This document shows, in pieces, positions 1,548-52,582 of a stretch of DNA of 64,000 nucleotides. Every line of letters starts with the position of its first letter. The first letter of the stretch is position 1. The DNA comes from Patescibacteria group bacterium (GTDB taxonomy: Bacteria > Patescibacteriota > Microgenomatia > UBA1400 > MFAQ01): assembly GCA_943355005.1 (NCBI GenBank), contig CALRDV010000001.1, forward strand, positions 92,632 to 156,631. The letters run 5' to 3'. Position numbers and translations under genes: made by a program. The notes under the pieces were generated by a model, which did not search any database, was not told the DNA's origin, and saw nothing but the letters and a program-made list of their open reading frames with translations.

Positions 1548-1601
1548 GTTGATTGAATTTAAATTGACACATCAACTACAAAAGTCTAAAATTCCTTATC
1601 C

Positions 1602-4600: not shown

Positions 4601-6818
4601 TCAGATTCTCATGTCGGATGGAAAAACCAAGAATATTGAAGATGTTAAAGTCGGAGATAAAGTCAAAACTCTTACTTCTTCCGATTCAGATAAATTGGTA
4701 AGCGCCAAAGTTATCAAGACATTTGTTCACAAATTAGCTGGCTATCTTGTAATAAACAATCACCTTAGAGTGACCGGTGAACACAACTTATTTATCAACG
4801 GCCGATGGATGACTGCTTTGGAAGCCAAGGTAGGGGATTCTTATCTGGACGTAAATGGTAAATATCAGGATATTTATTCCATCGAAAATTATTCGGGAAT
4901 TAATACTGTCTACAACTTTACGGTCGAGAAACTCAGCACTTATTTTGCTGATGGATTCTATGTTCACAACGACAAGGGCCGTGAACTCTTTGTAGACAAT
5001 GCCTTCTTTGGTAGTGTCAGGACCGGTGCCGATGGTCGCGCCTCAGTAGACGTGAAGCTTCCCGACAATCTTACTTCCTGGAGAATCACATCTCAGGGAA
5101 TCACGGGAGATCTGAAGGTGGGTGTCGCTCAAACTCCACTTATCGTCAAACAACCTCTCTTTGTCGATGCCGTCATGAATACTGAATATGTCATCGGAGA
5201 TCATCCACAGATTTTAGTTCGTGTCTATGGTGAAGGATTGTCTACTGGGGAAAACGTAAATGTCGTGGTTCAGTCGGATAGTTTAGGAATCTCCAAAACA
5301 TTCTCAGTTAAAGCTTTTGAATCTTCCAAAATTGATCTTGGAGTGCTAAAGGAAGGTATCCATAAAATTTCTTTCACCGGGAACTCCGGAAGTTTGTCTG
5401 ACAAACTTATTCGTAGCCTTACCGTTATCCCATCCAGATTGCAGGTTGCTAAAACGGAAAGTTCGGCTCTTACTGCTGAGACTAAGCCTGTCGGATCCTC
5501 AAATTCTCCTACCGGAATATTTATTTCAGACCTAAGTTTGGGGCGTTTCTACCCTCCACTACTGAATCTGTCATATACATGGGGAGATCGTTTGGATCAA
5601 AGAATTGCCCGTACTCTTTCTCAAGAAATTATCAAAAAAAGTTTTGATGATACTGTTATTCCGGAAAAATTGGACCTAACTTCCTTTCAGACTGGTGAAG
5701 GTGGCTACGCTCTCTTTCCATACTCCGGTTCAGATTTAGAACTATCCGCCTTTGTGGCTGCTTTGGCTGGTGATAAAGTTGATAGAGTAGGTCTTGCCAA
5801 TTATTTCTATAGAAATCTTTCAAAAATTCAGGACTCGGAAGGCTTTGCCAAATCTCTATACGGTCTAGCTTCTCTGGATGAGCCGGTTCTTCTTTTAATA
5901 AACCGTCTCGATGAGACCAAAAATCTTTCGCCTATGGCTAGGATTTATATTGGCTTAGCTCAAGCCGCCATTGGAGATACCGAGAATGCGGCTGATACCT
6001 ATCGTTCACTAATATCTGAGTTTGCCATCCCACAAGATAATCTTACTTACATGAAGGTGGGAAATGATAAGGATAGCTTTTTAAGAGCCACCGCTCTTAC
6101 TTCTGCCTTAGCTTCAGTTCTAAGTGAGAAAGAAGCTGATAGTCTTTTGGCTTATACCTTAAGTAATAGGGCCAAAGATATTCTATTAGTTTCGCCGGAA
6201 TTAATATCCATCAAGAATCAAGTTAACAATTCTGTTCCTCAGCCTGTCTCTTTTGCTTACACTTTGGGTGGTAAAAAAGTCACTAAGAGTTTAGAAAAAG
6301 GAAAAGTATTTAAGCTGGAACTTTCACCCAAAGACTTGGCGGATATCACTTTCTCTGATATTGTAGGCAGTGTGGGGATAACTTCTGCTTACTTCACTCC
6401 CTTGGATCCCAAAACAGCAACTGTAGACCCGTCGGTAAAAGTTAGTCGAAATTATTCTGTCAAAGGTAAAGATACAACCGTGTTCTCTGAGTCTGATCTT
6501 GTCAAAGTCACTCTTCCGGTTACTTATGCCGCCATTACTCAGGATGGTTGTTATCAGGTCACAGACATCCTTCCGTCGGGTCTGAAACCTGTTACATCCA
6601 TGTCATCCATGATTAGCAATGCCTATCTATACCCCTATGATATCAATGGTCAGAAGGTCAGCTTCTGTGTCTCCAAGGGCGATACGAGGAGTAGTGTGTC
6701 CTATTATGCTCGAGTGATATCGGCAGGGGATTACAGGTCGGAGAACGCAATTATTCAGTCACTCAAGGCTCCGTCAATCTTCAATTTCTCACCTGCCGGA
6801 ACCGTGAGTATCAAATGA
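1602..6818 (+). CDS. Giant (1738 aa) membrane-anchored alpha-2-macroglobulin-like protein with degenerate thioester site, carrying a Hint/bacterial-intein-like domain at the bait-region position.
   Basis: N-terminal TM helix (ILSLIGIAVIVFGVIFASNYL). A2M MG motif 'AFFGSVRTGADGRASVDVKLPDNLTSWRI...GDLKVGVAQ' (compare human A2M 'PDTITEW'). Helical TED-like region 'TGEGGYALFPY...LSAFVAALAG' in place of CGEQ. Hint domain from 'GGGCFLPGTQILMSDG' to 'FYVHN'. Confidence 0.65.
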   Translation: MEKIKSGLRSFGVRNAILSLIGIAVIVFGVIFASNYLRSSARSRLGSDAGLVLTADREDTLGAFTDTTFTLKSDKDLSVSDVKKNIIFFPEIDFDVREVGSRQFSIKPKNNLNDNSLYRIKILSQAKTFSWAFQTKNDFRVVQSLPRDKGTYVPLNSGIEVTFSHDNWEDINFKTNNFEITPNVEGRFERHSRTLSFVPKSLAPDTLYTVKVKKGVVLKGSTDSLKEDYIFQFETQPASRDQVQLNLSRSFYEFSQAETPALDLYSSSQGGADVTVKVYQDPPQGFLSDLITKLSIPSWANNSLRNNRRPVSGLTKVLEFNTPIQKQTYTSYVMFPQTLPKGYYIVELNIGNVTTQALIQITDISAYLSVSGTKTVVWVNDLKTAGPISGAEVVLGEVKGTSVADGTVSFDTPLDKLSDIKYATVSKGDSKLFLPLQNSRYYYDASYQNSRRQTDKYWNYFYTDRPAYLPTDTLKFWGLLRDRDNLSQKQKFTLEVTRTDYSNWDFNPVVLFSREIETSDLGTFIGDIPLTNFNPGYYGVNLKLGSNIISSSSFSVETYTKPAYKISLNSPKKAYIIGDTVTFSGQATFFEGSPVPGMNLKYSIGGDEGKMSTDSMGKYSFNYTAGVSNNTYSYSPESKYINVYSALQEEGEINTNTSISVFDSSLVFGNSKSSTKDQAGNVEVDLRLVDTDKYVQGTPIEELFAPAPSRQITGDLMENQYVKKEVGTYYDFINKITTPRYEYSTVQNKIADITLTTDSNGKAVYSFPATKGKSYNVRLKASDDQGRVTSRDIYVSGYASDNYLNSYLYLKTNKTGEIQNRYSVGEQVSLTLMKGESELVTNSSDKFLYLFAQRGIKSYQITSGNSISFKYSDIFVPNINITAVRFTGKTYEVAENMSLYFDTSSKKLSLDVTKDKATYLPGDTAKISVLAKDFSGSPAQAEVNLSFVDEAYYALYSQYLDPLSRIYSQLDSDIIASYQSHRYPLDSGGAEGGGCFLPGTQILMSDGKTKNIEDVKVGDKVKTLTSSDSDKLVSAKVIKTFVHKLAGYLVINNHLRVTGEHNLFINGRWMTALEAKVGDSYLDVNGKYQDIYSIENYSGINTVYNFTVEKLSTYFADGFYVHNDKGRELFVDNAFFGSVRTGADGRASVDVKLPDNLTSWRITSQGITGDLKVGVAQTPLIVKQPLFVDAVMNTEYVIGDHPQILVRVYGEGLSTGENVNVVVQSDSLGISKTFSVKAFESSKIDLGVLKEGIHKISFTGNSGSLSDKLIRSLTVIPSRLQVAKTESSALTAETKPVGSSNSPTGIFISDLSLGRFYPPLLNLSYTWGDRLDQRIARTLSQEIIKKSFDDTVIPEKLDLTSFQTGEGGYALFPYSGSDLELSAFVAALAGDKVDRVGLANYFYRNLSKIQDSEGFAKSLYGLASLDEPVLLLINRLDETKNLSPMARIYIGLAQAAIGDTENAADTYRSLISEFAIPQDNLTYMKVGNDKDSFLRATALTSALASVLSEKEADSLLAYTLSNRAKDILLVSPELISIKNQVNNSVPQPVSFAYTLGGKKVTKSLEKGKVFKLELSPKDLADITFSDIVGSVGITSAYFTPLDPKTATVDPSVKVSRNYSVKGKDTTVFSESDLVKVTLPVTYAAITQDGCYQVTDILPSGLKPVTSMSSMISNAYLYPYDINGQKVSFCVSKGDTRSSVSYYARVISAGDYRSENAIIQSLKAPSIFNFSPAGTVSIK
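4584..4970 (+). other. Hint / bacterial intein-like (BIL) domain, about 129 aa, embedded in the A2M-like protein. The flanks are DSGGAEGGG|C ... VHN|DKG, so there is no C+1 nucleophile.
   Basis: N-terminal splicing motif C-F-L-x-G-T-x-I; block B 'TGEH'; C-terminal 'VHN'. The following residue is Asp, as in BIL domains rather than canonical inteins. Confidence 0.6.
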
Positions 6819-8614
6819 AGCATCTTAAGAAGCATCTTGTCATTCCGGGCCCTGCCTTGCTAGTAGGCAGGTTGACCCGGAATCCATCTGGATTTGTAAT
6901 TGGTCTTCTGTTGTCCTTATTACTTATCGTACTTGGAATAAACATTTTACTTTCTTATAAGCCCAGAAAAACAATTTCTCTAAAGCCAACCTTCTCCACA
7001 GACTTTGCCTATGACAATCGTACTTTTCTCCACGCCGTAGCCGAAAACAAAAGTATTGGAGGTTCTATTCCGAGTGTCGTTATCCTACCCCACCATCTAC
7101 TTGCTTCCACCATTATTGCAGAAGGCATTTCGATGTTGGCGAGGCAGTCACCTAAAACTATTATTATTCTTTCTCCAAATCATGCGAATACCGGCCAGTG
7201 TGACATTGTTACTTCACGAAATAGTTGGGAGACTCCCTTTGGTCAAATGGATGTTGATCTAGATATTCAAAAGATATTTTTGGATTCCAAGATTATATGT
7301 ACAGACGACACCGCTATGCAGGTGGAGCACGGTGTAGCCGGTCTTTTGCCATTTATTAAATATTATCTACCGAACACTAAAGTTGTTCCTTTGGCACTAA
7401 AGAAAGAAATTGATCCTAATTCGTTCAAAATATTTACTCAAAAATTAATTGAAGTTTCCAAAAACTCTACCATTTTAGCCTCCATCGACTTCTCTCATGG
7501 TCTGTCTCAGAAGGAATCATTAAAGCGGGACAGCCAAACAAAAAGTTTAATTGCCAATCTTAATTATTCGGAATTAGAAAAATTATCTTCTGAGTACATA
7601 GACTCCCCAATATCTCTCATTTCTGCACTAAGTGTAATTAATTCCTATGGTTCCAAGCCCGAATTTCTCGTTCACTCCGACTCGTCAGCATTCAATAGAG
7701 ACACCAAAGATGTCACCTCATATTTTTTGATTTCCGACACACCGTCATTGCGAGGTACTCCGCGGCAATCTACCGGCTCGAACGACTCCTTCACCCTTGT
7801 CTTCGGCGGAGACGTCATGCTTGGTCGTTCTGTGAACACTCGCATGCTCAAATATTCAGATTTCACTTGGCCTTTTTTAAAAATATCAACTTTACTTTCC
7901 CAAGCAGATTTAACTCTGGTGAATCTGGAGTCGCCCTTTCGCTCTGGATGCAAAGAGTCTGATTCTGGAATGGTTTTCTGTGCGGATCCACGGTCCATCG
8001 AAGGTTTACTCGCCGCAGGAGTGGATGTTGTGAATCTGGCCAACAACCATATTGATAACCAGGGAAAAGAGGGGATAACTGAGACTTTGGAGATTTTAAA
8101 TAAGAATAATATTGTCTCTGTGGGGGTGGACCCCCGCGACCACCCAACTCCGTCAAATATTTTCACCATCAAAAACACCAAAATCGCCTTCCTCGGCTTT
8201 GACGATATTCGACCCGTCTCATCGGAAGTTACTTCTGCCACTCCGGAAAATATCAAGACTCAAATCGCTGAAGCCAAAAAGATGTCTGATCTTGTTGTAG
8301 CCACCTTTCACTGGGGAAGCGAATACAGTTCTCACAATTCCGGACAAGAATATTTGGCTCATCTAGCTATTGATTCCGGTGCCGACTTGGTCATTGGTCA
8401 TCACCCCCACTGGGTTCAGGAGTTTGAAGAATACAAAAGCAAGCCCATCTATTATTCTTTGGGAAACTTGGTCTTCGATCAAATGTGGTCCGACAAGACC
8501 AGAAATGGACTAGTTGTCAGATTCACTTACACTGGTTCCGATTTGCTCAACAGAGAAGAATTCCCCATCAAGATTTTTGACTACGGCCAACCGGCTCTGC
8601 TATACAATAAGTAG
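6815..8614 (+). CDS. Membrane-anchored fusion protein: MEMO1/AmmeMemoRadiSam-B-like domain fused to a CapA/PGA_cap metallophosphatase-like domain. The N-terminal tail is encoded by a palindromic repeat.
   Basis: Memo-like 'ILPHHLLAST...LSPNHAN...WETPFGQMDVD...VEHGVAGLLPFIKYYLP'. CapA-like 'FGGDVMLGR...NLESPF...NLANNHIDNQG...HWGSEYS...IGHHPHW'. TM 'FVIGLLLSLLLIVLGINILL'. The ATG overlaps the stop of the upstream gene (ATGA). Confidence 0.6.
   Translation: MKHLKKHLVIPGPALLVGRLTRNPSGFVIGLLLSLLLIVLGINILLSYKPRKTISLKPTFSTDFAYDNRTFLHAVAENKSIGGSIPSVVILPHHLLASTIIAEGISMLARQSPKTIIILSPNHANTGQCDIVTSRNSWETPFGQMDVDLDIQKIFLDSKIICTDDTAMQVEHGVAGLLPFIKYYLPNTKVVPLALKKEIDPNSFKIFTQKLIEVSKNSTILASIDFSHGLSQKESLKRDSQTKSLIANLNYSELEKLSSEYIDSPISLISALSVINSYGSKPEFLVHSDSSAFNRDTKDVTSYFLISDTPSLRGTPRQSTGSNDSFTLVFGGDVMLGRSVNTRMLKYSDFTWPFLKISTLLSQADLTLVNLESPFRSGCKESDSGMVFCADPRSIEGLLAAGVDVVNLANNHIDNQGKEGITETLEILNKNNIVSVGVDPRDHPTPSNIFTIKNTKIAFLGFDDIRPVSSEVTSATPENIKTQIAEAKKMSDLVVATFHWGSEYSSHNSGQEYLAHLAIDSGADLVIGHHPHWVQEFEEYKSKPIYYSLGNLVFDQMWSDKTRNGLVVRFTYTGSDLLNREEFPIKIFDYGQPALLYNK
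6839..6892 (+). repeat. GTCATTCC...GGAATCCATCTGG palindromic repeat with a nested inner palindrome, translated as 'VIPGPALLVGRLTRNPSG' at the N-terminus of the Memo/CapA gene.
   Basis: gtcattccgggccctgccttgctagtaggcaggttgacccggaatccatctgg. Confidence 0.8.
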
Positions 8615-14496: not shown

Positions 14497-14568
14497 CGTC
14501 ATTGCGAGGAACGAAGTGACGTGGCAATCCAGGAATTGTCATCCTCGCGAAAGCGGGGATCCATCTGG
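14497..14568 (+). repeat. Two adjacent palindromic repeats, B-type (GTCATTGCGAG...GTGGCAATCCAGG) followed by A-type (GTCATCCTCGCGAAAGCGGGGATCCATCTGG).
   Basis: cgtcattgcgaggaacgaagtgacgtggcaatccaggaattgtcatcctcgcgaaagcggggatccatctgg. Confidence 0.8.
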
Positions 14569-16113: not shown

Positions 16114-16263
16114 GTGTCATTCCGAGCGAAGTCTAGGAACCTGCCTGCCGGCAGGCAGGTCTCCCTCCACCCGTCATTGCGATGAGCGAAGCGTGGTGGC
16201 AATCCAGGAAGTATAAAATCAATAATATCTGTCATTCCGGGCTTGACCCGGAATCCATCCGGG
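16114..16263 (+). repeat. Intergenic cluster of three palindromic repeats (A-type, B-type, A-type) plus a CTGCCGGCAGG / CTCCCTCCACC sub-motif.
   Basis: gtgtcattccgagcgaag...ctgcctgccggcaggcaggtctccctccacccgtcattgcgatgagcgaagcgtggtggcaatccagg...ctgtcattccgggcttgacccggaatccatccggg. Confidence 0.8.
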
Positions 16264-16286: not shown

Positions 16287-17297
16287 ATGAAAAACATACT
16301 CGTCATCTGCGGTCCAACGGCCTCAGGCAAAACCTCCCTCGCCCTCTCCATCGCCAAAGAAATTTTTTTCCCTCGCTCAAGTGTCATTCCCGACCCGCTT
16401 CGACGTAGCTTCAGCGAGGCGAGCCTGATCGGGAATCCATCTGGTAAATCAGTCCACATCCTCTCCGCCGACTCCCGCCAAATCTACAAAGGTCTCGACA
16501 TTATCACGGGCAAAGATATCCCGGCAGACTTGCCGTCTAATATAAAGTTCTTTGGCCTAGACCTAGTGAGTCCAAATCAAGTTTTCAATGTGTCTGATTT
16601 TGTTGCATATTCCCAAAAAATAATTACAGATTCAGCCGAGCAAAACATCCCCTTAATCATTGTTGGAGGTACAGGTTTGTATCTAAAAGCTATCACATCA
16701 AATCTTTTAGATGTTCACGTTCCGCCTGATAAGGAGCTCCGCTCAGAGCTGGAAAAATTAACCCTTTCAGATCTAAAAAAAAGACTGGAAGAACTAAATC
16801 CAAGCAAATATTCTTCTCTTAACAATTCCGATCTAAACAATCCCCGTCGCCTCATCCGTGCCATCGAAATCTCATATTCCTTCAAGCAAACTAACGTCAT
16901 TCCGGGCTTGACCCGGAATCCAGAACAATTTCACGACCAAAATCAAAACTTCCTCTGGCTCGGTCTAAAAGTCGATAAGCAAATCCAGGAAAACAAAATC
17001 CACCAACGGGTACTGGACCGTTTAGAAAACGGCGCCATTGACGAAGTCAAAAAGCTCATACCACACTATCCGGATACCTCGCTACCCATTCACTCTAGTC
17101 TTGGAGTAAAGCAAATCAAAGAATATTTAGCGGGGAATATATCCAAGGAACAGTTAACAGATTTGTGGACCAAAGTCGAAGTTGATTATGCTCGTCGCCA
17201 AATGGTCTGGTTCAATAAACAAAGTGGGATAGTTTGGTATGATAAAGATAGTATTAATCAGGAGTTGGTTGCATCTCTAGCAGAACAATTAAAATAA
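16287..17297 (+). CDS. miaA: tRNA dimethylallyltransferase MiaA, carrying two in-frame palindromic-repeat insertions.
   Basis: P-loop 'ICGPTASGKTSLAL'; 'ILSADSRQIYKGLDIITGK', 'IIVGGTGLYLKAITSNL'. Inserted peptides 'SSVIPDPLRRSFSEASLIGNPSG' and 'NVIPGLTRNPEQ'. Confidence 0.85.
   Translation: MKNILVICGPTASGKTSLALSIAKEIFFPRSSVIPDPLRRSFSEASLIGNPSGKSVHILSADSRQIYKGLDIITGKDIPADLPSNIKFFGLDLVSPNQVFNVSDFVAYSQKIITDSAEQNIPLIIVGGTGLYLKAITSNLLDVHVPPDKELRSELEKLTLSDLKKRLEELNPSKYSSLNNSDLNNPRRLIRAIEISYSFKQTNVIPGLTRNPEQFHDQNQNFLWLGLKVDKQIQENKIHQRVLDRLENGAIDEVKKLIPHYPDTSLPIHSSLGVKQIKEYLAGNISKEQLTDLWTKVEVDYARRQMVWFNKQSGIVWYDKDSINQELVASLAEQLK
16383..16444 (+). repeat. Composite A-type palindromic repeat inserted in-frame inside miaA, between the P-loop and the SADSRQIY motif.
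   Basis: gtcattcccgacccgcttcgacgtagcttcagcgaggcgagcctgatcgggaatccatctgg; 62 bp, not a multiple of 3, so the surrounding sequence must compensate to keep miaA in frame. Confidence 0.8.
16896..16923 (+). repeat. A-type palindromic repeat inserted in-frame inside miaA, encoding VIPGLTRNP.
   Basis: gtcattccgggcttgacccggaatccag. Confidence 0.85.
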
Positions 17298-21646: not shown

Positions 21647-21709
21647 CCGTCATTGCGAGGAGGTATTCCGACTGTTTACCCCGGCCAGCAGGCGGGGTGG
21701 CAATCCAGG
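21647..21709 (+). repeat. B-type palindromic repeat with an extended inner segment.
   Basis: ccgtcattgcgaggaggtattccgactgtttaccccggccagcaggcggggtggcaatccagg. Confidence 0.8.
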
Positions 21710-24217: not shown

Positions 24218-25567
24218 ATGACACTCTCAAAGCCACAAAAAACTTCTATTGGTGTTTTTATTCTTACGATCATCTCGCTCTACATAATTCTTCCTGCCAA
24301 ATTAGGCAACTTCAATGTTCCGAGAATCAATTTCAAGCTTGGCAACTTTGATTTCTCCAAAGAAATCGAACTTAAGCAAGGCTTGGATATTAAAGGTGGT
24401 CTACAAGTAGTTCTTAACGCAGACATGAAAGACATTGCTCAGGGAGACCGTCCATCAGCTTTAGAATCTCTAAAAAATGTTATCGGCAGAAGAGTAGATC
24501 TTTTTGGTGTTTCCGAATCGGGTGTCAAGACAGCCATGTCCGGCAATGACTACAGACTTATTCTAGAACTACCCGGAGTCACCGATCCCCAGCAAGCTTT
24601 ATCCCTCATTGGTCAAACCGCCAAGATGGTTTTTGCCCTTCCGATATACACTCCAGGGAAAACCGCCTCTGATTCAGCCACTCTTACCGGCTTTAGCCCC
24701 ACAGATCTCACGGGTGCCGACTTGGCCAGAGCTCAAGTTACTTTTGAGTCACAAGATAGATCTCCGGCTGTTTCCATTACTTTCAAAGACACCGGAAAAA
24801 CCAAGTTCGCCAAGCTAACCAAAGAAAATATCGGCAAACCTGTAGCAATTCTATTGGATGGATATCCCATTACCATGCCCACAGTTCAAGCCGAAATCGA
24901 TAGCGGAAGTGCTGTCATTACCGGCAAATTTTCAACCGACGAAGCCAAAGCTTTATCCGTTCAGTTAAATGCAGGAGCACTCCCTGTTCCTGTTTCTATC
25001 CTAAGTCAGAAAAATATTCCCGCGACTTTAGGTGCCGACTCCATCAAGAAAAGTATTACCGCCGGAGCTATCGGATTATTCATGGTTATCTTTTTTATGA
25101 TTGCATACTATGGTTGGATGGGTGTCATCGCCTCCGTTGGTTTGATACTCTATGGTGTTTTTACTTTAGCTCTCTACAAATTAATTCCCGTGGTTCTTAG
25201 TCTACCCGGTATTGCCGGTTTCCTCTTGTCCGTCGGTATGGCTGTAGATAGTAACATTCTGGTATTTGAAAGATACAAAGAAGAAATTCGCGCCGGTCGG
25301 GATTGGCGAGTTGGCTTAGAGCTAGCCTTTGGTCGAGCTTGGGACTCAATCAAAGACGCCAACACGGCTACTATTATTACCGGTTTAATTCTCTTTAATC
25401 CTCTTGAATGGAGTTTTTTAAATACCTCAGGCTCTGTCCGAGGTTTTGCCCTGACACTAATTTTGGGAATTTTTATCTCTCTCTTCACGGGCATTGTCGT
25501 CACCAGAAATCTCCTCCGCATCTTCTTCAAGGGCAAATCCTCTTCGTCATTGCGAGGAACAAAGTGA
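24218..25567 (+). CDS. secD: Protein translocase subunit SecD. Its C-terminus and stop codon are supplied by a palindromic repeat.
   Basis: 'KPVAILLDGYPITMPTVQAEIDSGSAVITGKFSTDEAKAL'; 'GVIASVGLILYGVFTLALYKLIPVVLSLPGIAGFLLSVGMAVDSNILVFER'. Confidence 0.9.
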   Translation: MTLSKPQKTSIGVFILTIISLYIILPAKLGNFNVPRINFKLGNFDFSKEIELKQGLDIKGGLQVVLNADMKDIAQGDRPSALESLKNVIGRRVDLFGVSESGVKTAMSGNDYRLILELPGVTDPQQALSLIGQTAKMVFALPIYTPGKTASDSATLTGFSPTDLTGADLARAQVTFESQDRSPAVSITFKDTGKTKFAKLTKENIGKPVAILLDGYPITMPTVQAEIDSGSAVITGKFSTDEAKALSVQLNAGALPVPVSILSQKNIPATLGADSIKKSITAGAIGLFMVIFFMIAYYGWMGVIASVGLILYGVFTLALYKLIPVVLSLPGIAGFLLSVGMAVDSNILVFERYKEEIRAGRDWRVGLELAFGRAWDSIKDANTATIITGLILFNPLEWSFLNTSGSVRGFALTLILGIFISLFTGIVVTRNLLRIFFKGKSSSSLRGTK

Positions 25568-25680
25568 CGCGGCAATCTATATTCGTCATTCCTGCGAAGG
25601 CAGGAATCCATAAAAACAAACACAAATTAATATTAAATCGTAATAATCTGTCATTCCCGACCTGATCGGGAATCTATAAA
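25545..25680 (+). repeat. Cluster of three palindromic repeats (B, A, A types) between secD and secF. The first overlaps the last codons and the TGA stop of secD.
   Basis: cgtcattgcgaggaacaaagtgacgcggcaatct ... ttcgtcattcctgcgaaggcaggaatccataaaa ... ctgtcattcccgacctgatcgggaatctataaaa. Confidence 0.8.
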
Positions 25681-32280: not shown

Positions 32281-33816
32281 TTAATTCACCTGACTAATAT
32301 CCACAATCCTTTTCAGCAAGTACTCTCGGTTATTTTTGCTGGTATCCTCCAGAACTTCATCAAACAACTCTTTGAGAACTTTGCCGATTATTGGTCCTGG
32401 TTTAACATTCAAGACCTCCATCACATCAAGTCCGTTTACCACAATATCATTAATTTCCATTGGTTCAAAGAGTTGTTCGCCAATTCTTTTTTGCAACTCC
32501 ATAAATCTCCAGCTTGTAGTCTTAGCCCCACTGCCCTTACGGTCGGCTATTCTTAGTAGTACAAGATCACTGATATTTTCTTTCCCCACTTTTCTAATCA
32601 GTCTTCGGATGGCTGCATCAGTCATCTCCGGCTGATATGCAAACATATGCCAGCGGACCAAAGTTACAATTTTATCAATTTCCTTTCTACTAAATTTTAG
32701 TCTCTCGACGATTTCTTTTACCATTTTTGCCCCAATTACTTCATGTCCATAAAAAGTTACCATCCCTCTGGTAGGTTGCATGAAACCGCAGTTGGCACAC
32801 GTCGTCAAATCATCAGAAAGATCCCTGTACATTTTTCCGCACTTTCGGCATTTAAAGCGCTGACTTCTGGGTTTTCCAATATCGTGAACAAGTGTAGCAA
32901 GTCGTATTATTGGATCAGGGGATGGACACTCTTGAAGAGCTTCCAGCATGTGCTCCAGAGCTGTTAATTTGTGATGCCCTCCTTGGATAATCCCTTTACC
33001 CTCCATAATTTCGGGCATAAAATGATTAATTAAGCCGGTCGATATTAACATTCGCATGCCGTCAGCCGGATAATTTGACCCCAAGATTTTCATGAATTCT
33101 TCCCGAATTCTTTCCTTACTAATTTTCTCCAGCAGTTCTGCTCTTTCCGATATTGCCGCTAAGGTTTTTTCTTCTATAACAAATCCCATTTTTGCCGCAA
33201 ATCTTATGGCCCTCAACATTCTCAAAGCATCTTCATTAAATCGAATTCTTGGCTCTCCAACAGCCCTAATCAACCCTTTCTCAAAGTCTTCCAACCCACC
33301 CACCATATCAATCAACTCAAATTCCTGCTTAATACTGTCACTTTCACTCTTGTCATTCCGGGCTTGACCCGGAATCCATCCGGATAATTTATTTTTTTCA
33401 TTTTTTATTCCCACCACCATCGCATTTATCGTAAAGTCCCTTCTGGTTACATCTTCTTCCAGTGTTTGTCCCCAAGAAACATTGTCTGGTCTTCGATAGT
33501 CGGAGTATTCTTTTTCAGATCTAAAAGTCGTAATCTCATAAAGTTCTTCCTTTTCTCCAACCATTACATTATAAGAAACAGTTCCAAAGTCGTTATTGTA
33601 GAAAGGACTATGCATCTTAAGTACTTCCAAACTTTGCTCCGGAGTAGCATTAGTTGTCAAATCGCAATTTTCCGGAACTCTACCCATTATCAGATTTCTG
33701 ACTCCTCCTCCAACCAAATATATTTCAAATCCGGCTTCAAGATACTCTTTCATTACCCCTTTTAAAGGAGTCGGCAAAAGTGATTTTTCATCCGGTAAAA
33801 GTAGTCTGGTATACAC
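32281..33816 (-). CDS. cca: CCA-adding tRNA nucleotidyltransferase (class II head + HD domain). It carries a Zn-ribbon insertion inside the HD domain and an in-frame palindromic-repeat insertion.
   Basis: 'LVGGGVRNLIMGRVPENCDLTTNATPEQ'; 'RRDFTINAM'; HD 'LVHDIGK...FYGHEVIGA'. Insert 'FKCRKCGKMYRDLSDDLTTCANCG'. Repeat peptide 'GWIPGQARNDKS'. Confidence 0.85.
   Translation of the reverse strand: MYTRLLLPDEKSLLPTPLKGVMKEYLEAGFEIYLVGGGVRNLIMGRVPENCDLTTNATPEQSLEVLKMHSPFYNNDFGTVSYNVMVGEKEELYEITTFRSEKEYSDYRRPDNVSWGQTLEEDVTRRDFTINAMVVGIKNEKNKLSGWIPGQARNDKSESDSIKQEFELIDMVGGLEDFEKGLIRAVGEPRIRFNEDALRMLRAIRFAAKMGFVIEEKTLAAISERAELLEKISKERIREEFMKILGSNYPADGMRMLISTGLINHFMPEIMEGKGIIQGGHHKLTALEHMLEALQECPSPDPIIRLATLVHDIGKPRSQRFKCRKCGKMYRDLSDDLTTCANCGFMQPTRGMVTFYGHEVIGAKMVKEIVERLKFSRKEIDKIVTLVRWHMFAYQPEMTDAAIRRLIRKVGKENISDLVLLRIADRKGSGAKTTSWRFMELQKRIGEQLFEPMEINDIVVNGLDVMEVLNVKPGPIIGKVLKELFDEVLEDTSKNNREYLLKRIVDISQVN
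32755..32871 (-). other. CxxC...CxxC zinc-ribbon insertion (about 39 aa) within the HD domain of the CCA enzyme.
   Basis: 'HDIGK|PRSQRFKCRKCGKMYRDLSDDLTTCANCGFMQPTRGMVT|FYGHEVIG'. Confidence 0.5.
33351..33384 (+). repeat. A-type palindromic repeat inserted in-frame in cca (read on the minus strand as WIPGQARND).
   Basis: tgtcattccgggcttgacccggaatccatccgg. Confidence 0.85.
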
Positions 33817-38686: not shown

Positions 38687-40150
38687 ATGGCAGATACGCA
38701 CGTCAGAACTAGAAATGCACCCTCGCCGACCGGTACTCCCCACATAGGAAATACAAGGACGGCACTTTACGATTATTTAATCGCCAAAAAATACGGCGGT
38801 GAATTCCTTTTACGTATCGAAGATACCGATGCTAAAAGATTTGTCGAAGGCTCGATAGAAAAAATTTATGCTATTCACGAATTTTTGGGTTTGACCAGAG
38901 ACGAAGATCCCCTCATCGGAGGACCTTACGGTCCCTATATTCAGTCAGAAAGGCTTAAATACTACCAAGAGTACGCTCAACTTCTATTGGATATGGGTGC
39001 CGCCTATTACTGTTTTTGTTCCGAAGAAAGATTAAAGAAACTCCACGAAGATAATCAATTTGCCAAGTACGATCGCCATTGTCGCCATTTGACCAAAGGA
39101 GAAGTCCAAGATCAGTTAGACTCCGGCGCGCCTTATGTAATCAGAACCAAGCTCCCGGAAACCGGTTTTACCGTCTGGCACGATTTAGTTCAAGGCAAAC
39201 TCAGCCTGCCGAATACGGAGTGTGATGACAAAGTACTTATAAAGACGAACGGGGTGCCTACTTATCATCTTGCCGTCGTAGTCGATGATCATCTTATGAA
39301 GGTTAGTCATGTTCTGAGAGGGGTTGAGTGGATGGCTTCTACTCCAATACATTTATTTTTATACGAATCTTTAGGATGGAAACCGCCGATTTTGGCCCAC
39401 GTACCTCTATTATTGGGGACAGATAGATCAAAGCTAGCCAAAAGGCATGGTGCCAAAAACGTTCTTCAGTTTGCTGAAGAGGGTTATTTGCCGGAAGCCA
39501 TCAACAACTTCCTTTTTTACCTTGGCTTCTCCTACAAGGATAATTCCGAACTACTAACTTTATCTCAAATGGCCGAAATCTTTGATGAAACCAAGATTCA
39601 AAGACAAAATGCCATTTTTGATGTCAAGCGTTTAGATTATTTAAATGGTCAATGGATCAAAAGACTCTCTTCTGAAGATTTACTTTCAAGATTAAAGACC
39701 TTTATCTCTGCAGATTGGCTAGCCCAAAAAGAAAAAGTTATTCAGGTTTTAAATCTCACCAAAGAAAGAATGTTGACCTTGGCTGAGTTTGCTCCCGCCG
39801 CCGATTATTTCTTTAATATTCCCATTCTTTCGCAAGAACTTGTTTTGGCTCAATCAAATCACACTCAGGAAGAAACTAAAGCCTGGTTCGACACAGCAAT
39901 CACTGTAATCAATAAAATGACCGTCATCCTCGCGAATGCGGGGATCCATCCGGAAAATTCATTCACCTCCGAAAATCTCCACACCGAACTAGCCAAAGCT
40001 CAGGTGGATTCAGGATTTACGCCCAAAGAAGCCTTTATGTCCCTTCGTGTAGGAATTTCAGGTAGGACGGTGACACCACCACTATTCGATTGCATGGTAA
40101 TCTTAGGTAAAGACGAAACTCTGAAAAGGTTATCTTCTGTCTTTCCCTAA
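38687..40150 (+). CDS. gltX: Glutamyl-tRNA synthetase, with an in-frame palindromic-repeat insertion near the C-terminus.
   Basis: 'RNAPSPTGTPHIGNTRTALYDYL' (HIGH); 'KLAKRHGA' (KMSKS-like); inserted peptide 'VILANAGIHPENS'. Confidence 0.9.
   Translation: MADTHVRTRNAPSPTGTPHIGNTRTALYDYLIAKKYGGEFLLRIEDTDAKRFVEGSIEKIYAIHEFLGLTRDEDPLIGGPYGPYIQSERLKYYQEYAQLLLDMGAAYYCFCSEERLKKLHEDNQFAKYDRHCRHLTKGEVQDQLDSGAPYVIRTKLPETGFTVWHDLVQGKLSLPNTECDDKVLIKTNGVPTYHLAVVVDDHLMKVSHVLRGVEWMASTPIHLFLYESLGWKPPILAHVPLLLGTDRSKLAKRHGAKNVLQFAEEGYLPEAINNFLFYLGFSYKDNSELLTLSQMAEIFDETKIQRQNAIFDVKRLDYLNGQWIKRLSSEDLLSRLKTFISADWLAQKEKVIQVLNLTKERMLTLAEFAPAADYFFNIPILSQELVLAQSNHTQEETKAWFDTAITVINKMTVILANAGIHPENSFTSENLHTELAKAQVDSGFTPKEAFMSLRVGISGRTVTPPLFDCMVILGKDETLKRLSSVFP
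39921..39953 (+). repeat. A-type variant palindromic repeat inside gltX.
   Basis: ccgtcatcctcgcgaatgcggggatccatccgg. Confidence 0.85.
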
Positions 40151-41965: not shown

Positions 41966-42000
41966 CTTGTCATTCCGGGCTTGACCCGGAATCCATCTGG
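41966..42000 (+). repeat. A-type palindromic repeat just downstream of the zinc-ribbon gene; may act as its terminator.
   Basis: cttgtcattccgggcttgacccggaatccatctgg. Confidence 0.8.
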
Positions 42001-43388: not shown

Positions 43389-43435
43389 CCGTCATTGCGA
43401 GCCATGTACTCATGGTGTGGCAATCTCACTCCACC
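43389..43435 (+). repeat. B-type palindromic repeat.
   Basis: ccgtcattgcgagccatgtactcatggtgtggcaatctcactccacc. Confidence 0.75.
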
Positions 43436-43440
43436 TTACC

Positions 43441-48275: not shown

Positions 48276-48460
48276 CGTGTCATTCTGAGCGAGTACTCGA
48301 GTCGAAGAATCTCCCTCGCCGGCAGGCGAATCTCCCTCCACCCACCCTCGTCATTCCGGGCTTGACCCGGAATCCAGTCCGCCCACCGTCATTTCGACCG
48401 AGTGAAACGAGTGGAGAAAACTCCTTCCACCAAGCATTCGTCATTGCGGGGTTTGAGATA
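48276..48460 (+). repeat. Dense intergenic cluster of at least four palindromic repeats (GTCATTCTGAGCGAG..., A-type, GTCATTTCGACCGAG..., truncated B) with CTCGCCGGCAGGCG / CTCCCTCCACC sub-motifs.
   Basis: cgtgtcattctgagcgagtactcgagtcgaagaatc...ctcgtcattccgggcttgacccggaatccagtcc...ccgtcatttcgaccgagtgaaacgagtggag...ttcgtcattgcgggg. Confidence 0.8.
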
Positions 48461-48634: not shown

Positions 48635-50545
48635 TCAGTCTAATATCTTCCTCTTCATCTCCTCATACCCCCTAGTTAAGTAAACTCCATTTTGAGCTTC
48701 TCTGAGGTCAAACCCAAAGGCTCTGCGGCTAACGGCAATTATTGGAGGAGCCTGAATTCTCTTAAAGATATTTATTTTGTATTGTTTCCATTTATGTTCC
48801 AAATCAGCTACAAAAGCTTCGGCAGTCGGGAAATATTTATCTACCAGTCCTGTTTCAATTTTTAGTTCATTCTCCAGTTCACCTTTGGTATACAAGTTCA
48901 AGATATATTCAGGGTCCCGTCTAAATTCTACGAACGATCGGAAAAGTCTGTCGTGATATGGGTAAAGGATTGGGTCTCCTAGTCCTTTAGTCACATCTTG
49001 CTTCTCGGAAAGTTCGGCTGAGGGAATCACATTCAATATTTCAGCCGGAATTATTTCTTTCCCTGCCAATTTATTCATATATCTGGCCAGTTGGTACACT
49101 TCACTCTTATAAATATCGGCAATAGGTGCTATGGCTCCATTTACATCTCCATAAAGTGTGCACCAGCCAATAGTTGTCTCGGTCTTGTTTCCGTTATTGG
49201 TGAATACGGCCCCCAGACAAGCAGCAATACCGGCCAGTACCCTGCTACCCCTATCTCTTGCTTGGATATTTTCCAAACTGTACTCACTCACTTCGACATC
49301 CGTTATTTGTTTTTCCTCATCTTGTCTTTCAAATTTCAGCGCCTTCAGTTCTTTCACGGTTAAATCTACCGATTCTTGAATAGGGAAGACTCCGTAATTT
49401 ATTCCAAGATTTTGAGCTAGTACTAAGGCCGCATTTTTTGTCAGATCAGAATTAAATCTGGATGGCATATTTACGGCATATACATTTTCTTTACCGATTG
49501 CCGCCACCAGTAGACATGCACTCACTGCCGAGTCTACTCCACCGGACAGTCCCAATACTGCCTTGCTCATTCTGTTTCCTTCGAAAAATCTCTTCATTCC
49601 GTAAACCAGTCCGTTGTACAGCTCCTCCACATCCCTTTCATCTGTTAGCTCGTCATTCCTGGCTTGACCAGGAATCCATCCAATTAACTCCTTAGAGTTA
49701 AGATCGATATCTACCTCCACTGTTTCCTCTACATAATCTCTCGCTTGTTTGACTACGTTTCCCGATTTGTCATATGCTGTAGAGTTCCCGTCAAAAAGGA
49801 AAATATTTTTGCCGTTATTCTGAATCCCAGTATTATTACAATATAAGAATGGTACGGAGACTTTTTCCAAAAGTGATTTTATGACTCTATGTCTCTTGTT
49901 ATTTTTTCTCCAAGTCCAAGGAGAGCAAGACAAATTCACAATTACATCAGCTCCATTTTCCGCTAATATCTTTGTCGGATTATCGGCGTAATCATCGCTC
50001 CACATATCCTCACAGAGAATAGCACCAATATTAATTTCCTCACCTCGGACAGTTACCTTGAAGGGCTTCAGAAATTCATTTAGTGGTTTTCCCATTTCGT
50101 TTGCGAGTCTTAGCATGGAGTAGAAGTGCCTCTCATCATCAAACTCTCTATACTTTGGCATCAAGGTCTTAAAAGTGTGTCCTTCAAAAGCCCCATTGCT
50201 TAGCCATTCACCGTTTTGGGCCAAATACACCGCATTATATTTACGAATACGGCCATCCTCACCCTTTTTATTTTTGTCTACAAACACATTACCCCAGATT
50301 ACAGCAATTCCTTGGCTGGCCTCCAATACATCCTGGTTATAATCCATCAAGTCATTTACAAACGACTCATTTTCCCACTCATCACCCAGAAGATAGCCCG
50401 GTACTACCATTTCCGAAAATAGAATCACATCTACGTTTCTTCTCTTGGCTACTTCAATTTCTCTAATCATCTTGGCTACGTTCAGATCAGGTCTTCCGGC
50501 GACCACTTCAATCTGTGCCAAAGCAAACTTCACTGTTTTATTCAT
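48635..50545 (-). CDS. nadE: Glutamine-dependent NAD+ synthetase (CN-hydrolase + NadE domains), with an in-frame palindromic-repeat insertion.
   Basis: CN hydrolase 'ILFSEMVVPGY...AILCEDMW'; PP-loop 'LGLSGGVDSAV'; inserted peptide 'GWIPGQARNDEL'. Confidence 0.9.
   Translation of the reverse strand: MNKTVKFALAQIEVVAGRPDLNVAKMIREIEVAKRRNVDVILFSEMVVPGYLLGDEWENESFVNDLMDYNQDVLEASQGIAVIWGNVFVDKNKKGEDGRIRKYNAVYLAQNGEWLSNGAFEGHTFKTLMPKYREFDDERHFYSMLRLANEMGKPLNEFLKPFKVTVRGEEINIGAILCEDMWSDDYADNPTKILAENGADVIVNLSCSPWTWRKNNKRHRVIKSLLEKVSVPFLYCNNTGIQNNGKNIFLFDGNSTAYDKSGNVVKQARDYVEETVEVDIDLNSKELIGWIPGQARNDELTDERDVEELYNGLVYGMKRFFEGNRMSKAVLGLSGGVDSAVSACLLVAAIGKENVYAVNMPSRFNSDLTKNAALVLAQNLGINYGVFPIQESVDLTVKELKALKFERQDEEKQITDVEVSEYSLENIQARDRGSRVLAGIAACLGAVFTNNGNKTETTIGWCTLYGDVNGAIAPIADIYKSEVYQLARYMNKLAGKEIIPAEILNVIPSAELSEKQDVTKGLGDPILYPYHDRLFRSFVEFRRDPEYILNLYTKGELENELKIETGLVDKYFPTAEAFVADLEHKWKQYKINIFKRIQAPPIIAVSRRAFGFDLREAQNGVYLTRGYEEMKRKILD
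49651..49683 (+). repeat. A-type variant repeat inserted in-frame in nadE.
   Basis: cgtcattcctggcttgaccaggaatccatccaa. Confidence 0.85.
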
Positions 50546-51736: not shown

Positions 51737-51785
51737 AGAAAAATACTATGTCTAGGTAAGTCAAAACACAACCCTCAATTACCAT

Positions 51786-51927
51786 CCGTCATTGCGAGGT
51801 ACTCCGTGGCAATCTAGCCTATCAGCCACCTGTCATTCCTCACACTATCTCTGTCATTCCAGCGAAGGCTGGAATCCATCAAATAACTCAACTTTTGTCA
51901 TTCCGGGCTTGACCCGGAATCCAGTCT
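51786..51927 (+). repeat. Cluster of 3-4 palindromic repeats (B-type, partial, A-type, A-type). The last overlaps the C-terminus and stop of the GIY-YIG gene.
   Basis: ccgtcattgcgaggtactccgtggcaatctagcc...ctgtcattccagcgaaggctggaatccatc...ttgtcattccgggcttgacccggaatccagtc. Confidence 0.8.
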
Positions 51928-52169
51928 TTTAAAAGTAATTCTTTTTTTGTCTTCGCCCAAGTCCGTATTTCCCTTTCTCTCCTCATGGCATCCCCTCTGG
52001 TCGGCTGTTCCTCCGAATACACCAGCTCTACATTGTCAAAACATCTTACATATCTGGCCGACCTAACAGTCTTACTTAGATGTTCCTTCAAACGCCTTTC
52101 CAAGTTATTTGTCTGACCGACATACAAAGTGTTCGATGAAGTCCGCAAAATATATACCACAAAGCTCAT
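51888..52169 (-). CDS. Small GIY-YIG nuclease-family protein (UPF0213/YhbQ-like) with a repeat-encoded C-terminal tail.
   Basis: 'VVYILRTSSNTLYVGQTNNLERRLKEH'; last 13 aa 'KDWIPGQARNDKS' come from the repeat. Confidence 0.7.
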   Translation of the reverse strand: MSFVVYILRTSSNTLYVGQTNNLERRLKEHLSKTVRSARYVRCFDNVELVYSEEQPTRGDAMRREREIRTWAKTKKELLLKDWIPGQARNDKS

Positions 52170-52513
52170 AGCTGAAGCAGTTGCATTTGAGAATTGATTT
52201 GCTGATTCACTGTATCTATCAGAGATTTAGAGATCCAAATCCCAATAACAAGTGAAAGTATTGTAAGTATCAAAGATATCCATCCATATAGTTTTGATTT
52301 TTCATCTTCGGTTTTTATATATCTAAAAGTAAGCAAAATTCCAAGTGGTGGTAGAAGAGTACTCAAAATAAATAACCATAGCAGGGAACCAAAAGTGTTG
52401 GATACCGTTTTATCTTTAATTTTTCTTCCACAGCTTGGACAGAAGAAATCTTGACTAGATATTGGCTGAGAACAATTTTTACAAACCAACTGGTTGATTA
52501 TTTGAGGCTCCAT
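52166..52513 (-). CDS. Zinc-ribbon + 2-TM membrane protein.
   Basis: 'CKNCSQ...CPSCG' followed by two hydrophobic helices. Confidence 0.5.
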   Translation of the reverse strand: MEPQIINQLVCKNCSQPISSQDFFCPSCGRKIKDKTVSNTFGSLLWLFILSTLLPPLGILLTFRYIKTEDEKSKLYGWISLILTILSLVIGIWISKSLIDTVNQQINSQMQLLQL

Positions 52514-52536
52514 TTCTTCATTTTAACATTCATGGC

Positions 52537-52571: not shown

Positions 52572-52582
52572 GAGATATCCAA

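What the first reader, a model, noticed from the sequence alone, without database searches (positions are those of the whole stretch)
6839..6892. Palindromic repeat family inserted in-frame into essential genes (RPE-like selfish DNA in coding regions)
Short palindromic elements with conserved flanks (GTCATTCC-[stem-loop]-GGAATCCATCYGG) occur inside ORFs without breaking the frame. They lie at the Memo/CapA N-terminus (6839-6892), twice inside miaA (16383-16444, 16896-16923), and once each in cca (33351-33384), gltX (39921-39953) and nadE (49651-49683). Copies also replace native C-termini and stop codons in secD (25545-25578) and in the GIY-YIG gene (51895-51927). Forward copies add VIPGLTRNP-like peptides and reverse copies add WIPGQARND-like peptides. 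The insertion sites fall between conserved catalytic blocks, for example between the miaA P-loop and the SADSRQIY motif, which suggests the inserts form tolerated surface loops. This mirrors the Rickettsia palindromic elements (Ogata et al. 2000).
Basis: partly seen in the sequence, partly recalled or inferred. Interest (0 to 1): 0.85.

Follow-up and report, generated by a model that had tools for sequence, protein, structure and literature searches.

The report
Strand-polar CGTC hairpin repeats inside genes
A tiny hairpin-forming selfish DNA repeat of an already described kind (CGTC-tagged REPs, the class that includes some Rickettsia palindromic elements) has multiplied in an uncultured Collierbacteria-like bacterium. 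It sits in frame inside several housekeeping genes, and every copy points the same way along the chromosome.

Summary
The window holds 24 copies of YGTC-AT…hairpin…AT-CCA. Nine lie inside ORFs without breaking them and 15 are intergenic.

They match the four structural features of the CGTC-tagged REP superfamily (Di Nocera et al. 2013, PMC3733652). The phenomenon is a new member of a known kind, not a new kind.

The host is a CPR/Patescibacteria bacterium. Orthologue alignments, PDB homologues and an AlphaFold model show the inserts are lineage-specific, low-confidence loops.

The commonest unit is 27 nt, exactly 9 codons, and is open in two of three frames in each orientation. This explains why the frame is preserved.

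- All 24 copies are on the + strand, whichever way the genes run.
- The closest relative (80% NadE identity) also has only co-oriented copies, mostly at other sites.
- Other hairpins are nested in REP loops.

Known CGTC REPs are mostly inverted dimers. No transposase or other recurrent neighbouring gene was found, and a GIY-YIG link was tested and rejected. I infer strand-specific, single-strand insertion, but this is not shown.

The parts
6839..6886 (+). Class A REP (ATTCCGGG stem). A second hairpin (CCTGCCT-TGCTAGT-AGGCAGG) is nested after the first loop base. In frame at the N-terminus of the Memo/PGA_cap ORF (6815-8614), between the basic N-terminus and the predicted membrane helix.
7744..7772 (+). 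Class B REP (GTCATTGCGAGG…GGCAATCTA). In frame (SLRGTPRQS) in the linker between the Memo (aa 71-303) and PGA_cap (aa 327-556) domains.
14498..14531 (+). Class B REP, intergenic, starting 4 nt after the RNase Y stop codon.
14538..14563 (+). Class A variant (GTCATCCTCGCG-AAA-GCGGGGATCCA, one G·T pair), intergenic, head-to-tail with the previous copy.
16116..16165 (+). Degenerate REP head (GTCATTCCGAGCGAAG…) fused to the perfect palindrome CCTGCCTGCCGGCAGGCAGG. Lies in the miaB-miaA spacer.
16173..16206 (+). Class B REP, miaB-miaA spacer.
16231..16257 (+). Canonical 27-nt class A REP (GTC-ATTCCGGG-CTTGA-CCCGGAAT-CCA), miaB-miaA spacer.
16383..16439 (+). Class A REP (ATTCCCGA stem, as at 25650) with 30 nt nested in its loop. 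In frame in miaA between the P-loop helix and the SADSRQIY strand.
16896..16922 (+). Canonical 27-nt class A REP, in frame in miaA (VIPGLTRNP, residues 204-212).
21649..21707 (+). Class B REP with a long internal insert, intergenic.
25546..25579 (+). Class B REP supplying the last six codons (SLRGTK) and the TGA stop of secD.
25585..25610 (+). Class A REP with a 4-nt loop (ATTCCTGC-GAAG-GCAGGAAT), secD-secF spacer.
25650..25676 (+). Class A REP (ATTCCCGA-CCTGA-TCGGGAAT, CTA tail), secD-secF spacer.
33352..33378 (+). Canonical class A REP inside cca, a minus-strand gene. Read in reverse it encodes WIPGQARND.
39923..39948 (+). Class A variant (GTCATCCTCGCG-AAT-GCGGGGATCCA) in frame in the gltX anticodon-binding domain (VILANAGIH).
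41969..41995 (+). Canonical class A REP, intergenic.
43391..43427 (+). Class B-like REP (ATTGC…GCAAT closing an inner CCATG…CATGG hairpin), lying between two minus-strand genes.
48279..48313 (+). Degenerate REP (GTCATTCTGAGCG…CGAAGAATCTC), intergenic between minus-strand genes.
48350..48376 (+). Canonical class A REP, intergenic between minus-strand genes.
48388..48425 (+). Degenerate REP-like unit (CGTCATTTCGACCGAGTGAAACGAGTGGAG…). Membership is uncertain.
49652..49678 (+). Class A REP with a compensated stem change (ATTCCTGG/CCAGGAAT) inside nadE, a minus-strand gene. Encodes WIPGQARND in the interdomain linker.
51788..51816 (+). Class B short REP, intergenic (adk - GIY-YIG spacer).
51853..51878 (+). 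Class A REP with a 4-nt loop (ATTCCAGC-GAAG-GCTGGAAT), intergenic.
51897..51923 (+). Canonical class A REP forming the C-terminal tail (WIPGQARND-KS*) of the 93-aa GIY-YIG ORF, a minus-strand gene. Homologues end about 10 residues earlier.

Best explanation
These are CGTC-tagged REPs: non-autonomous hairpin repeats of about 26-35 nt. They have undergone a lineage-specific expansion in a Collierbacteria-like CPR bacterium.

Shown:
- The canonical unit is YGTC, an 8-bp stem beginning AT, a 4-5-nt loop, and a CCA tail.
- Six different stem sequences all stay paired.
- The commonest unit is exactly 27 nt (9 codons) and has no stop codon in two of three frames in either orientation. A copy landing in a dispensable loop, linker or terminus therefore leaves the protein intact, and such copies survive.
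- Insertions are lineage-specific and turn over between close relatives.
- The same loops of MiaA and NadE carry different REP classes in different Collierbacteria.
- All copies share one DNA-strand orientation, independent of gene direction, in two related genomes.

Inferred:
- Both strands of a palindrome can fold equally well, so only the asymmetric tag and tail can define orientation. Strict polarity therefore points to an insertion step that reads one specific strand. I propose a trans-acting enzyme working on single-stranded DNA, most simply at the replication fork, as IS200/IS605 and RAYT enzymes do.
- The secondary hairpins found just after the first loop base of two REPs suggest that extruded REP loops are themselves insertion targets.
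- The enzyme is unidentified.
For: Family features:
- 24 of 24 copies are preceded by C or T before GTC.
- Tails are CCA in 16 copies and CTA in 4.
- Class A copies have 8-bp stems starting AT and loops of 4-5 nt.
- These match the published definition.
- The canonical hairpin folds at -8.5 kcal/mol, z = -4.4.

Frame arithmetic:
- The unit is 27 nt and the open frames are VIPGLTRNP, HSGLDPES, WIPGQARND and GFRVKPGM.
- HSGLDPES-type peptides appear in MiaA orthologues.

Insertions:
- Searches support lineage-specific insertion.
- The inserted MiaA segments are disordered in the AlphaFold2 model.

Polarity:
- The window holds 24 copies on + and 0 on -, with genes on + at 1-42 kb and on - at 42-64 kb.
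- The syntenic relative L217, from another metagenome, has about 15 copies, all in the equivalent orientation and mostly at different sites.
- The tag-bearing strand is the C-rich strand in both genomes. This also holds at fourfold-degenerate sites of genes on either strand.

No transposase:
- None is annotated in the 82 kb examined.
- This agrees with the published lack of a dedicated CGTC transposase.
Against: - No enzyme has been identified, and the rest of the genome could not be read.
- The replication direction is inferred only from GC skew. Gene-strand bias in the left 42 kb would suggest the opposite direction, and the AT skew does not clearly support the inferred direction.
- No orientation flip at an origin or terminus could be observed.
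- In 34 diverse bacterial loci, the orientation of single copies shows no relation to local GC skew (18 versus 16). Any polarity mechanism is therefore not general to the superfamily.
- Translation of the inserts is inferred from intact ORFs, not measured.
- The N-terminal Memo copy could lie upstream of the true start codon.
- Class B units have only a 5-bp closing stem and fold weakly (z about -1.3 to -1.8), so their membership is looser.
Confidence: 0.8

Rival explanations
1. The hairpins are host regulatory RNA elements (terminators, mRNA stabilisers or attenuators) kept by selection. Their presence in ORFs is incidental.
For: Many intergenic copies sit a few nucleotides after stop codons of co-directional genes: 14498 after RNase Y, 25546-25676 after secD, and 41969. 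Di Nocera et al. argue that many REPs are transcribed and act as RNA. The single wobble in the GTCATCC variants is G·T on the + strand.
Against: Orientation does not follow transcription. Copies next to or inside minus-strand genes (33352, 43391, 48279-48425, 49652, 51788-51923) have the same + orientation as those in plus-strand genes. Nine copies lie inside ORFs, where termination would be harmful. Positions differ between close relatives.
Confidence: 0.15
2. The co-oriented repeats are a host-recruited polar chromosome signal, in the manner of KOPS, Chi or other architecture-imparting sequences, rather than the footprint of an insertion mechanism.
For: Orientation is 24 of 24 in one direction across divergent transcription units, and it is conserved in a relative. 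The tag strand coincides with the C-rich strand.
Against: - Distribution is patchy: no copies in about 15 kb on the left (-8.4 to 6.8 kb) or 21 kb on the right (52 to 73 kb) of the extended region.
- Copy sequences are heterogeneous, with several stem classes and nested inserts.
- Other Collierbacteria and CPR loci almost lack them.
- Known polar signals are short oligomers, not hairpins.
Confidence: 0.1
3. The small GIY-YIG nuclease encoded next to the densest repeat cluster (51888-52169) mobilises the repeats, forming a REPtron-like unit for the CGTC class.
For: Three to four REPs abut or overlap its 3' end. In locus L101 a GIY-YIG ORF is flanked on both sides by the same REP dimer. Some homologues carry repeat-like N-terminal peptides such as SERSESKD.
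Against: - 80 metagenomic loci encoding close homologues (622 kb) contain only 6 strict CGTC hairpins in total. None of those 80 loci has two or more by a looser criterion.
- Only 1 of 120 REP-containing loci from diverse bacteria encodes a homologue.
- An unbiased clustering of neighbouring ORFs found no recurrent family other than generic transporters.
Confidence: 0.04
4. The peptides are ancestral protein segments, or the repeats are an assembly or chimera artefact.
For: None beyond the a priori possibility.
Against: - Solved homologues and many CPR orthologues lack the segments.
- The identical 26-27-nt DNA occurs in coding and non-coding contexts.
- The same proteins are recorded from two sources (NCBI and ENA); the contig read here is 223 kb and the longest on record is 327 kb.
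- The element occurs in more than 120 stretches from many phyla and in viral contigs.
Confidence: 0.01

Closest known systems
CGTC-tagged REP superfamily (Di Nocera, De Gregorio & Rocco 2013, BMC Genomics 14:522; PMC3733652), closest to the 8-bp-stem, 5-nt-loop type (CGTC-2)
   Same: - 5' CGTC/TGTC tag.
- 8-bp stem starting AT.
- 4-5-nt loop and CCA tail.
- Multicopy and mostly intergenic, with occasional in-frame intragenic copies.
- Several sequence subtypes coexist in one genome.
- No flanking dedicated transposase.
   Different: - The host is a CPR/Patescibacteria bacterium. The paper reports five phyla, mainly Alphaproteobacteria.
- Copies are singletons or head-to-tail and strictly co-oriented. 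The paper describes mostly head-to-head dimers and calls head-to-tail dimers negligible.
- Nested hairpins occur in REP loops.
- Class B units have only a 5-bp closing stem.
- I could not see Figure 2 of the paper, so the exact subfamily assignment is by stem and loop length only.
Rickettsia palindromic elements (RPE; Ogata et al. 2000, cited from my own knowledge and via PMC3733652)
   Same: Palindromic selfish DNA inserted in frame into conserved genes at tolerated sites. According to PMC3733652, RPE-6 and RPE-4 are themselves CGTC-1 and CGTC-4 REPs.
   Different: The classic RPE-1 is about 100-150 bp and encodes 30-50 aa. The units here are 26-35 bp (9-11 aa), or up to 59 bp when nested. 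The host phylum and lifestyle differ.
GTAG REPs/BIMEs/REPINs mobilised by RAYT (TnpA-REP), and IS200/IS605 single-strand transposition
   Same: A short guide or tag lies 5' of a hairpin foot. In-frame REP insertions in genes are also reported for this class (PMC6006769). IS200/IS605 elements show replication-linked orientation bias, which resembles the strict polarity seen here.
   Different: The tag is YGTC, not GTAG. There are no inverted doublets. No Y1/HUH gene is present in the 82 kb examined, and none has been linked to CGTC REPs in the literature.
Neisseria dRS3 repeats (classed as CGTC-1 in PMC3733652)
   Same: Same tagged-hairpin architecture, with clustered arrays.
   Different: dRS3 repeats flank larger repeat units and serve as phage integration sites. 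I found no evidence of that role here.

Membership tests
CGTC-tagged REP superfamily | Unpaired 5' tag CGTC (often TGTC or CCTC) at the foot of the hairpin | tested here: met
   24 of 24 copies have C or T followed by GTC directly before the stem (12 CGTC, 12 TGTC).
CGTC-tagged REP superfamily | Stem of 8-9 bp whose first two pairs are A-T and T-A | tested here: met
   14 copies have an 8-bp stem beginning AT. Two of them include one G·T pair, and 6839 and 16383 carry extra hairpin sequence in the loop. The remaining class B or degenerate copies keep the AT start but close with only a 5-bp ATTGC/GCAAT stem.
CGTC-tagged REP superfamily | Loop of 4-5 nt | tested here: met
   Loops are CTTGA, CCTGA, GAAG, GAAA and GAAT in 12 copies. 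6839 and 16383 carry secondary inserts in the loop; class B 21649 has a long internal insert.
CGTC-tagged REP superfamily | Short unpaired 3' tail, consensus CCA | tested here: met
   CCA in 16 copies, CTA in 4, CTC in 2.
CGTC-tagged REP superfamily | Predominant head-to-head dimer organisation (typical of the family, not strictly defining) | tested here: not met
   There are no inverted partners in the window. By contrast, about 65% of copies in 120 loci from other bacteria have a head-to-head partner.
Rickettsia palindromic elements (RPE-1 type) | 100-150-bp palindromic element inserted in frame in ORFs | tested here: not met
   In-frame insertion is met, but the units are 26-59 bp. The relationship is through RPE-4/RPE-6, which are CGTC REPs.
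GTAG REP / RAYT system | GT[AG]G tag 5' of the hairpin and a cognate Y1 transposase gene flanked by REPs | tested here: not met
   The tag is YGTC. No Y1_Tnp or other transposase domain is annotated among the called genes from -8.4 to 73 kb.
MITE (IS-derived) | Terminal inverted repeats matching a parent IS, and target-site duplications | tested here: inconclusive
   I saw no shared direct repeat in the flanks. The only common feature upstream is a pyrimidine. Exact empty sites could not be defined because the closest orthologues are only 60-80% identical.
IS200/IS605-like single-strand elements | Orientation tied to the replication strand | tested here: inconclusive
   Co-orientation is strict and coincides with the C-rich strand in two genomes. 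No origin or terminus was available to test for a switch, and gene-strand bias conflicts with the skew-based assignment.

The most novel reading that the evidence does not exclude
In this CPR lineage, CGTC REPs are inserted by a replication-coupled, single-strand-specific mechanism that reads the YGTC-tagged strand. This would produce head-to-tail, replichore-polar copies instead of the usual inverted dimers. If so, these small, REP-rich genomes would give the first mechanistic handle on how the 'orphan' CGTC superfamily moves. The enzyme could then be sought by comparing REP-rich genomes with REP-poor Collierbacteria.
Probability: 0.3. Interest if true: 0.65.

Novelty: new member of a known kind. 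Interest (0 to 1): 0.45.

Why it matters
CGTC-tagged REPs are widespread. Even so, no enzyme that moves them is known.

A reduced CPR genome offers an unusually clean system for two questions. Here the repeats are dense, recently active (copy positions differ between relatives at 80% protein identity), strictly strand-polar, and repeatedly tolerated in the same loops of essential enzymes.
- How do these elements spread?
- How much short selfish DNA shapes the proteins of minimal-genome bacteria?

There is also a practical point. The repeats create spurious peptides (VIPGLTRNP, WIPGQARND, SLRGTK…), altered termini and length variation in CPR protein families. These affect annotation, alignments and structure prediction.

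Tried and rejected
1. GIY-YIG as the mobilising enzyme. 80 metagenomic loci with close homologues (622 kb) held only 6 strict REPs, and 1 of 120 REP loci encoded a homologue. Rejected.

2. Unbiased search for a gene family recurrently next to the repeat. I clustered 4,804 ORFs from 120 diverse loci. Only generic ABC-transporter-like and sensor-like clusters emerged. No candidate.

3. Link between single-copy orientation and local GC skew in diverse bacteria. The result was 18 negative versus 16 positive. No general relation.

4. GC skew of other co-oriented contigs. The result is confounded by C-rich spacers that are part of the arrays.

5. Formal covariation count with the count of structure pairs. 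MAFFT placed the loop-length gap inside the stem, so I relied on direct stem inspection.

6. Extending the contig. Only about 8-9 kb per side could be fetched, and neither extension contained a repeat. The orientation-switch test could therefore not be done.

It gave taxonomic breadth but no whole-genome map.

8. Defining exact insertion boundaries or target duplications from NadE and MiaA orthologues. The loops are too variable at 60-80% identity.

9. Literature searches for REPs in CPR/Patescibacteria returned nothing relevant.
Full report
**Source and context**

The window comes from a 223-kb metagenomic contig (ENA ERZ27280309 k141_147785). The best matches of its MiaA, GIY-YIG and NadE proteins are from Candidatus Collierbacteria and other Microgenomates, that is CPR/Patescibacteria. 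G+C is about 41%. Genes run mainly on the + strand from 1 to 42 kb and on the - strand from 42 to 64 kb.

**Checking the observation**

Inspecting every GTCAT[TC][CG] site and its downstream complement gave a catalogue of 24 copies between 6.8 and 52 kb.

The encoded peptides are as stated: VIPG… in plus-strand genes and WIPGQARND in minus-strand genes.

- The secD stop codon lies inside a repeat.
- The GIY-YIG stop lies 6 nt beyond the repeat.
- A ninth coding copy (7744-7772) lies in the Memo-PGA_cap interdomain linker.
- Fifteen copies are intergenic, often a few bases after a stop codon or in head-to-tail clusters separated by C-rich spacers.

**Anatomy**

The canonical unit is Y-GTC-ATTCCGGG-CTTGA-CCCGGAAT-CCA. 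As single-stranded DNA it folds at -8.5 kcal/mol (z = -4.4).

Six different 8-bp stems occur: ATTCCGGG, ATTCCTGG, ATTCCCGA, ATTCCTGC, ATTCCAGC and ATCCTCGC. Each is fully paired with its partner arm, one through a G·T pair. The hairpin is therefore maintained while its sequence drifts.

A second class (GTCATTGCGAGG…GGCAATCY) keeps the tag, the AT start and the tail. It closes with only 5 bp around a variable interior and folds weakly.

Three copies carry extra sequence inside:
- 6839 is the canonical unit with a second hairpin inserted after the first loop base.
- 16383 is the 25650-type unit with 30 nt inserted at the same relative position.
- 21649 is a class B unit with a long interior.

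**Are the coding copies real insertions?**

- MiaA: an alignment of 30 MiaA proteins shows orthologues with no insert at either site (P0004, P0013, P0016, P0048). Other Collierbacteria carry different repeat-derived peptides at the same two loops, for example SLRGAKRRGNLTPP, HSGLDPESR, VIPAEAGIH, VISGLTRNPSG and VGAIHESP.
- MiaA versus solved structures: residues 27-56 of the window protein have no counterpart.
- CCA: about 27 extra residues relative to 1miv around the repeat.
- NadE: the copy sits in the linker between the two Pfam domains. The closest relatives carry class B-derived peptides (…SVRRIETRNDG…) at that linker instead.
- GltX: the repeat aligns with existing, poorly conserved residues, so a net insertion is not shown.
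- An AlphaFold2 model of MiaA (mean pLDDT 83.7) has pLDDT below 50 and no secondary structure across much of both repeat-encoded segments (residues 32-48 and 203-216). Most of the rest of the model scores above 80.

The 'tolerated loop' idea is therefore supported computationally. Translation itself is inferred.

**Why the frame survives**

The canonical unit is 27 nt, exactly nine codons. Forward it is open in two frames (VIPGLTRNP, HSGLDPES) and closed in one. Reverse it is open in two frames (WIPGQARND, GFRVKPGM) and closed in one.

In the window, all four forward class A coding copies use the VIP frame and all three reverse copies use the WIP frame. This is the same triplet partition of the duplex. 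With seven cases this is only suggestive, and other frames are used in orthologues.

**What it is**

The anatomy matches the published definition of CGTC-tagged REPs: a terminal CGTC, often TGTC; stems of 8-9 bp almost always starting with A-T and T-A pairs; loops of 4-5 nt; and a short tail of consensus CCA (PMC3733652).

That paper assigns R. conorii RPE-6 and RPE-4 and Neisseria dRS3 to this superfamily. It documents in-frame intragenic copies, reports the repeats from five phyla, and notes that no dedicated transposase is associated with them.

For the same reason, the core phenomenon is already known.

These came from Proteobacteria, Nitrospirota, Chloroflexota, Bacteroidota, Firmicutes, Armatimonadota, a Gottesmanbacteria MAG and others. 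About 65% have an inverted partner, as the paper describes.

I found no paper describing REPs in CPR bacteria.

**What is unusual here**

1. Strict polarity. All 24 copies are on the + strand, although they lie in, after and between genes of both orientations. A two-sided binomial test gives about 1e-7.

   There are no inverted dimers, and clusters are head-to-tail, an arrangement the 2013 paper calls negligible.

   The closest relative I could retrieve has 80% NadE identity, comes from a different metagenome and is syntenic. It carries about 15 copies, again all in the equivalent orientation and mostly at different sites. Independent insertions therefore obey the same polarity.

   The tag-bearing strand is the C-rich strand in both genomes. 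This also holds at fourfold-degenerate sites of genes on either strand (-0.44 and -0.06 on the + strand).

2. Expansion is lineage-restricted and patchy.
   - There are no copies in the extra 8.4 kb to the left or from 52 to 73 kb.
   - 80 CPR loci totalling 622 kb contain only six strict hairpins.

3. REP loops are themselves sites of secondary hairpin insertion.

**Mechanism**

A perfect palindrome folds equally on both strands, so only the tag and tail are asymmetric. Polarity that ignores transcription direction therefore argues for a DNA-level, strand-specific insertion step that reads the tag. It argues against an RNA function as the organising principle.

The best analogy is single-strand transposition by HUH/Y1 enzymes at the replication fork (PMC6006769, PMC3333891). 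This step is inferred.

- No transposase domain is annotated in the 82 kb available.
- An unbiased clustering of ORFs next to the repeat in 120 loci found no recurrent family.
- The adjacent GIY-YIG nuclease is not generally associated with the repeats.

The replication direction rests on GC skew alone. It conflicts with gene-strand bias in the left part of the window, and the AT skew does not clearly support it. In other bacteria single copies show no skew relation.

**Verdict**

This is a confirmed, well-described case of CGTC-tagged REPs inserted in frame into housekeeping genes, in a phylum where they appear not to have been reported. It is a new member of a known kind.

The strict strand polarity and the head-to-tail organisation are the features worth following up. 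They could expose the unknown mobilisation mechanism of this superfamily.

Noticed in passing
window 1602-6818 (+): A 1738-aa alpha-2-macroglobulin-like protein (MG2, A2M_BRD and A2M domains) carries a Hint/PT-HINT (intein-like) domain at residues about 989-1123, between the bait-region and A2M domains. It may be an intein or a Hint-mediated processing module in a bacterial A2M.
   Followed up: no
window 32281-33777 (-), residues about 335-360 of the ORF: Besides the REP, the CCA-adding enzyme carries a CxxC…CxxC zinc-ribbon-like segment (FKCRKCGKMYRDLSDDLTTCANCGF) inside its HD domain region. The Pfam HD match spans 124 residues for 87 profile positions.
   Followed up: no
L013 and L007 (IMGVR_UViG_3300003667_000196, 16 kb); L002: A contig from a viral collection with phage-like ORFs (my reading of the ORF translations: tape-measure-, terminase- and lysozyme-like; no domain search was run) carries more than 25 CGTC REPs. 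All are co-oriented with its early genes, and some form 47-50-bp head-to-tail arrays with C-rich spacers. REPs of this family therefore also populate phage genomes in a polar fashion.
   Followed up: partly
L041 5493-5706 (Armatimonadota MAG JAXGLP010000001.1): Five identical CGTC REPs lie in a perfect 47-bp-period head-to-tail array with near-identical 21-nt spacers. The period is too short for CRISPR, so it looks like local tandem amplification.
   Followed up: no
L101 4286-4800: A small GIY-YIG ORF (4394-4715, minus strand) is flanked on both sides by the same head-to-head REP dimer in direct orientation. It is the only such case among 120 loci.
   Followed up: partly
Alignment A1 (MiaA orthologues P0003, P0007, P0032): Peptides such as VGAIHESP / VGAIRESPIR sit at the same MiaA loop. 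In my reading, which I did not test, they look like translations of a different, GTAG-tagged REP (GTAGGGGC…GCCCCTAC type). If so, both REP superfamilies colonise Collierbacteria proteins.
   Followed up: no
window 16160-16172, 43420-43440, 48335-48349, 48376-48388, 51770-51787; L217 9880-9906: Intergenic REPs are typically separated or followed by short G-poor motifs (CTCCACC, TCTCACTCC, CCACCC) on the same strand. These may be part of a larger repeat unit, and they contribute to the negative GC skew.
   Followed up: no
window 1-6800 and 52000-64000, plus flanks to -8.4 kb and 73.3 kb: No REP copies occur in these roughly 36 kb, against 24 copies in the central 45 kb. The reason for the patchiness is unknown.
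   Followed up: partly
GIY-YIG homologues P0167, P0173, P0176, P0181, P0196, P0212, P0218, P0229: Several homologues have N-terminal extensions such as MSKSKALSERSE… or MSERSESKDN…. These resemble translations of the degenerate repeat at window 48279 (GTCATTCTGAGCG…CGAAGAATC), which suggests repeat sequence upstream of these genes in other CPR genomes.
   Followed up: no
window 6815-8614 (+): Memo-like and PGA_cap (CapA-like) domains are fused in one 599-aa membrane-anchored protein. Its start codon overlaps the stop of the upstream A2M-like gene (ATGA).
   Followed up: no
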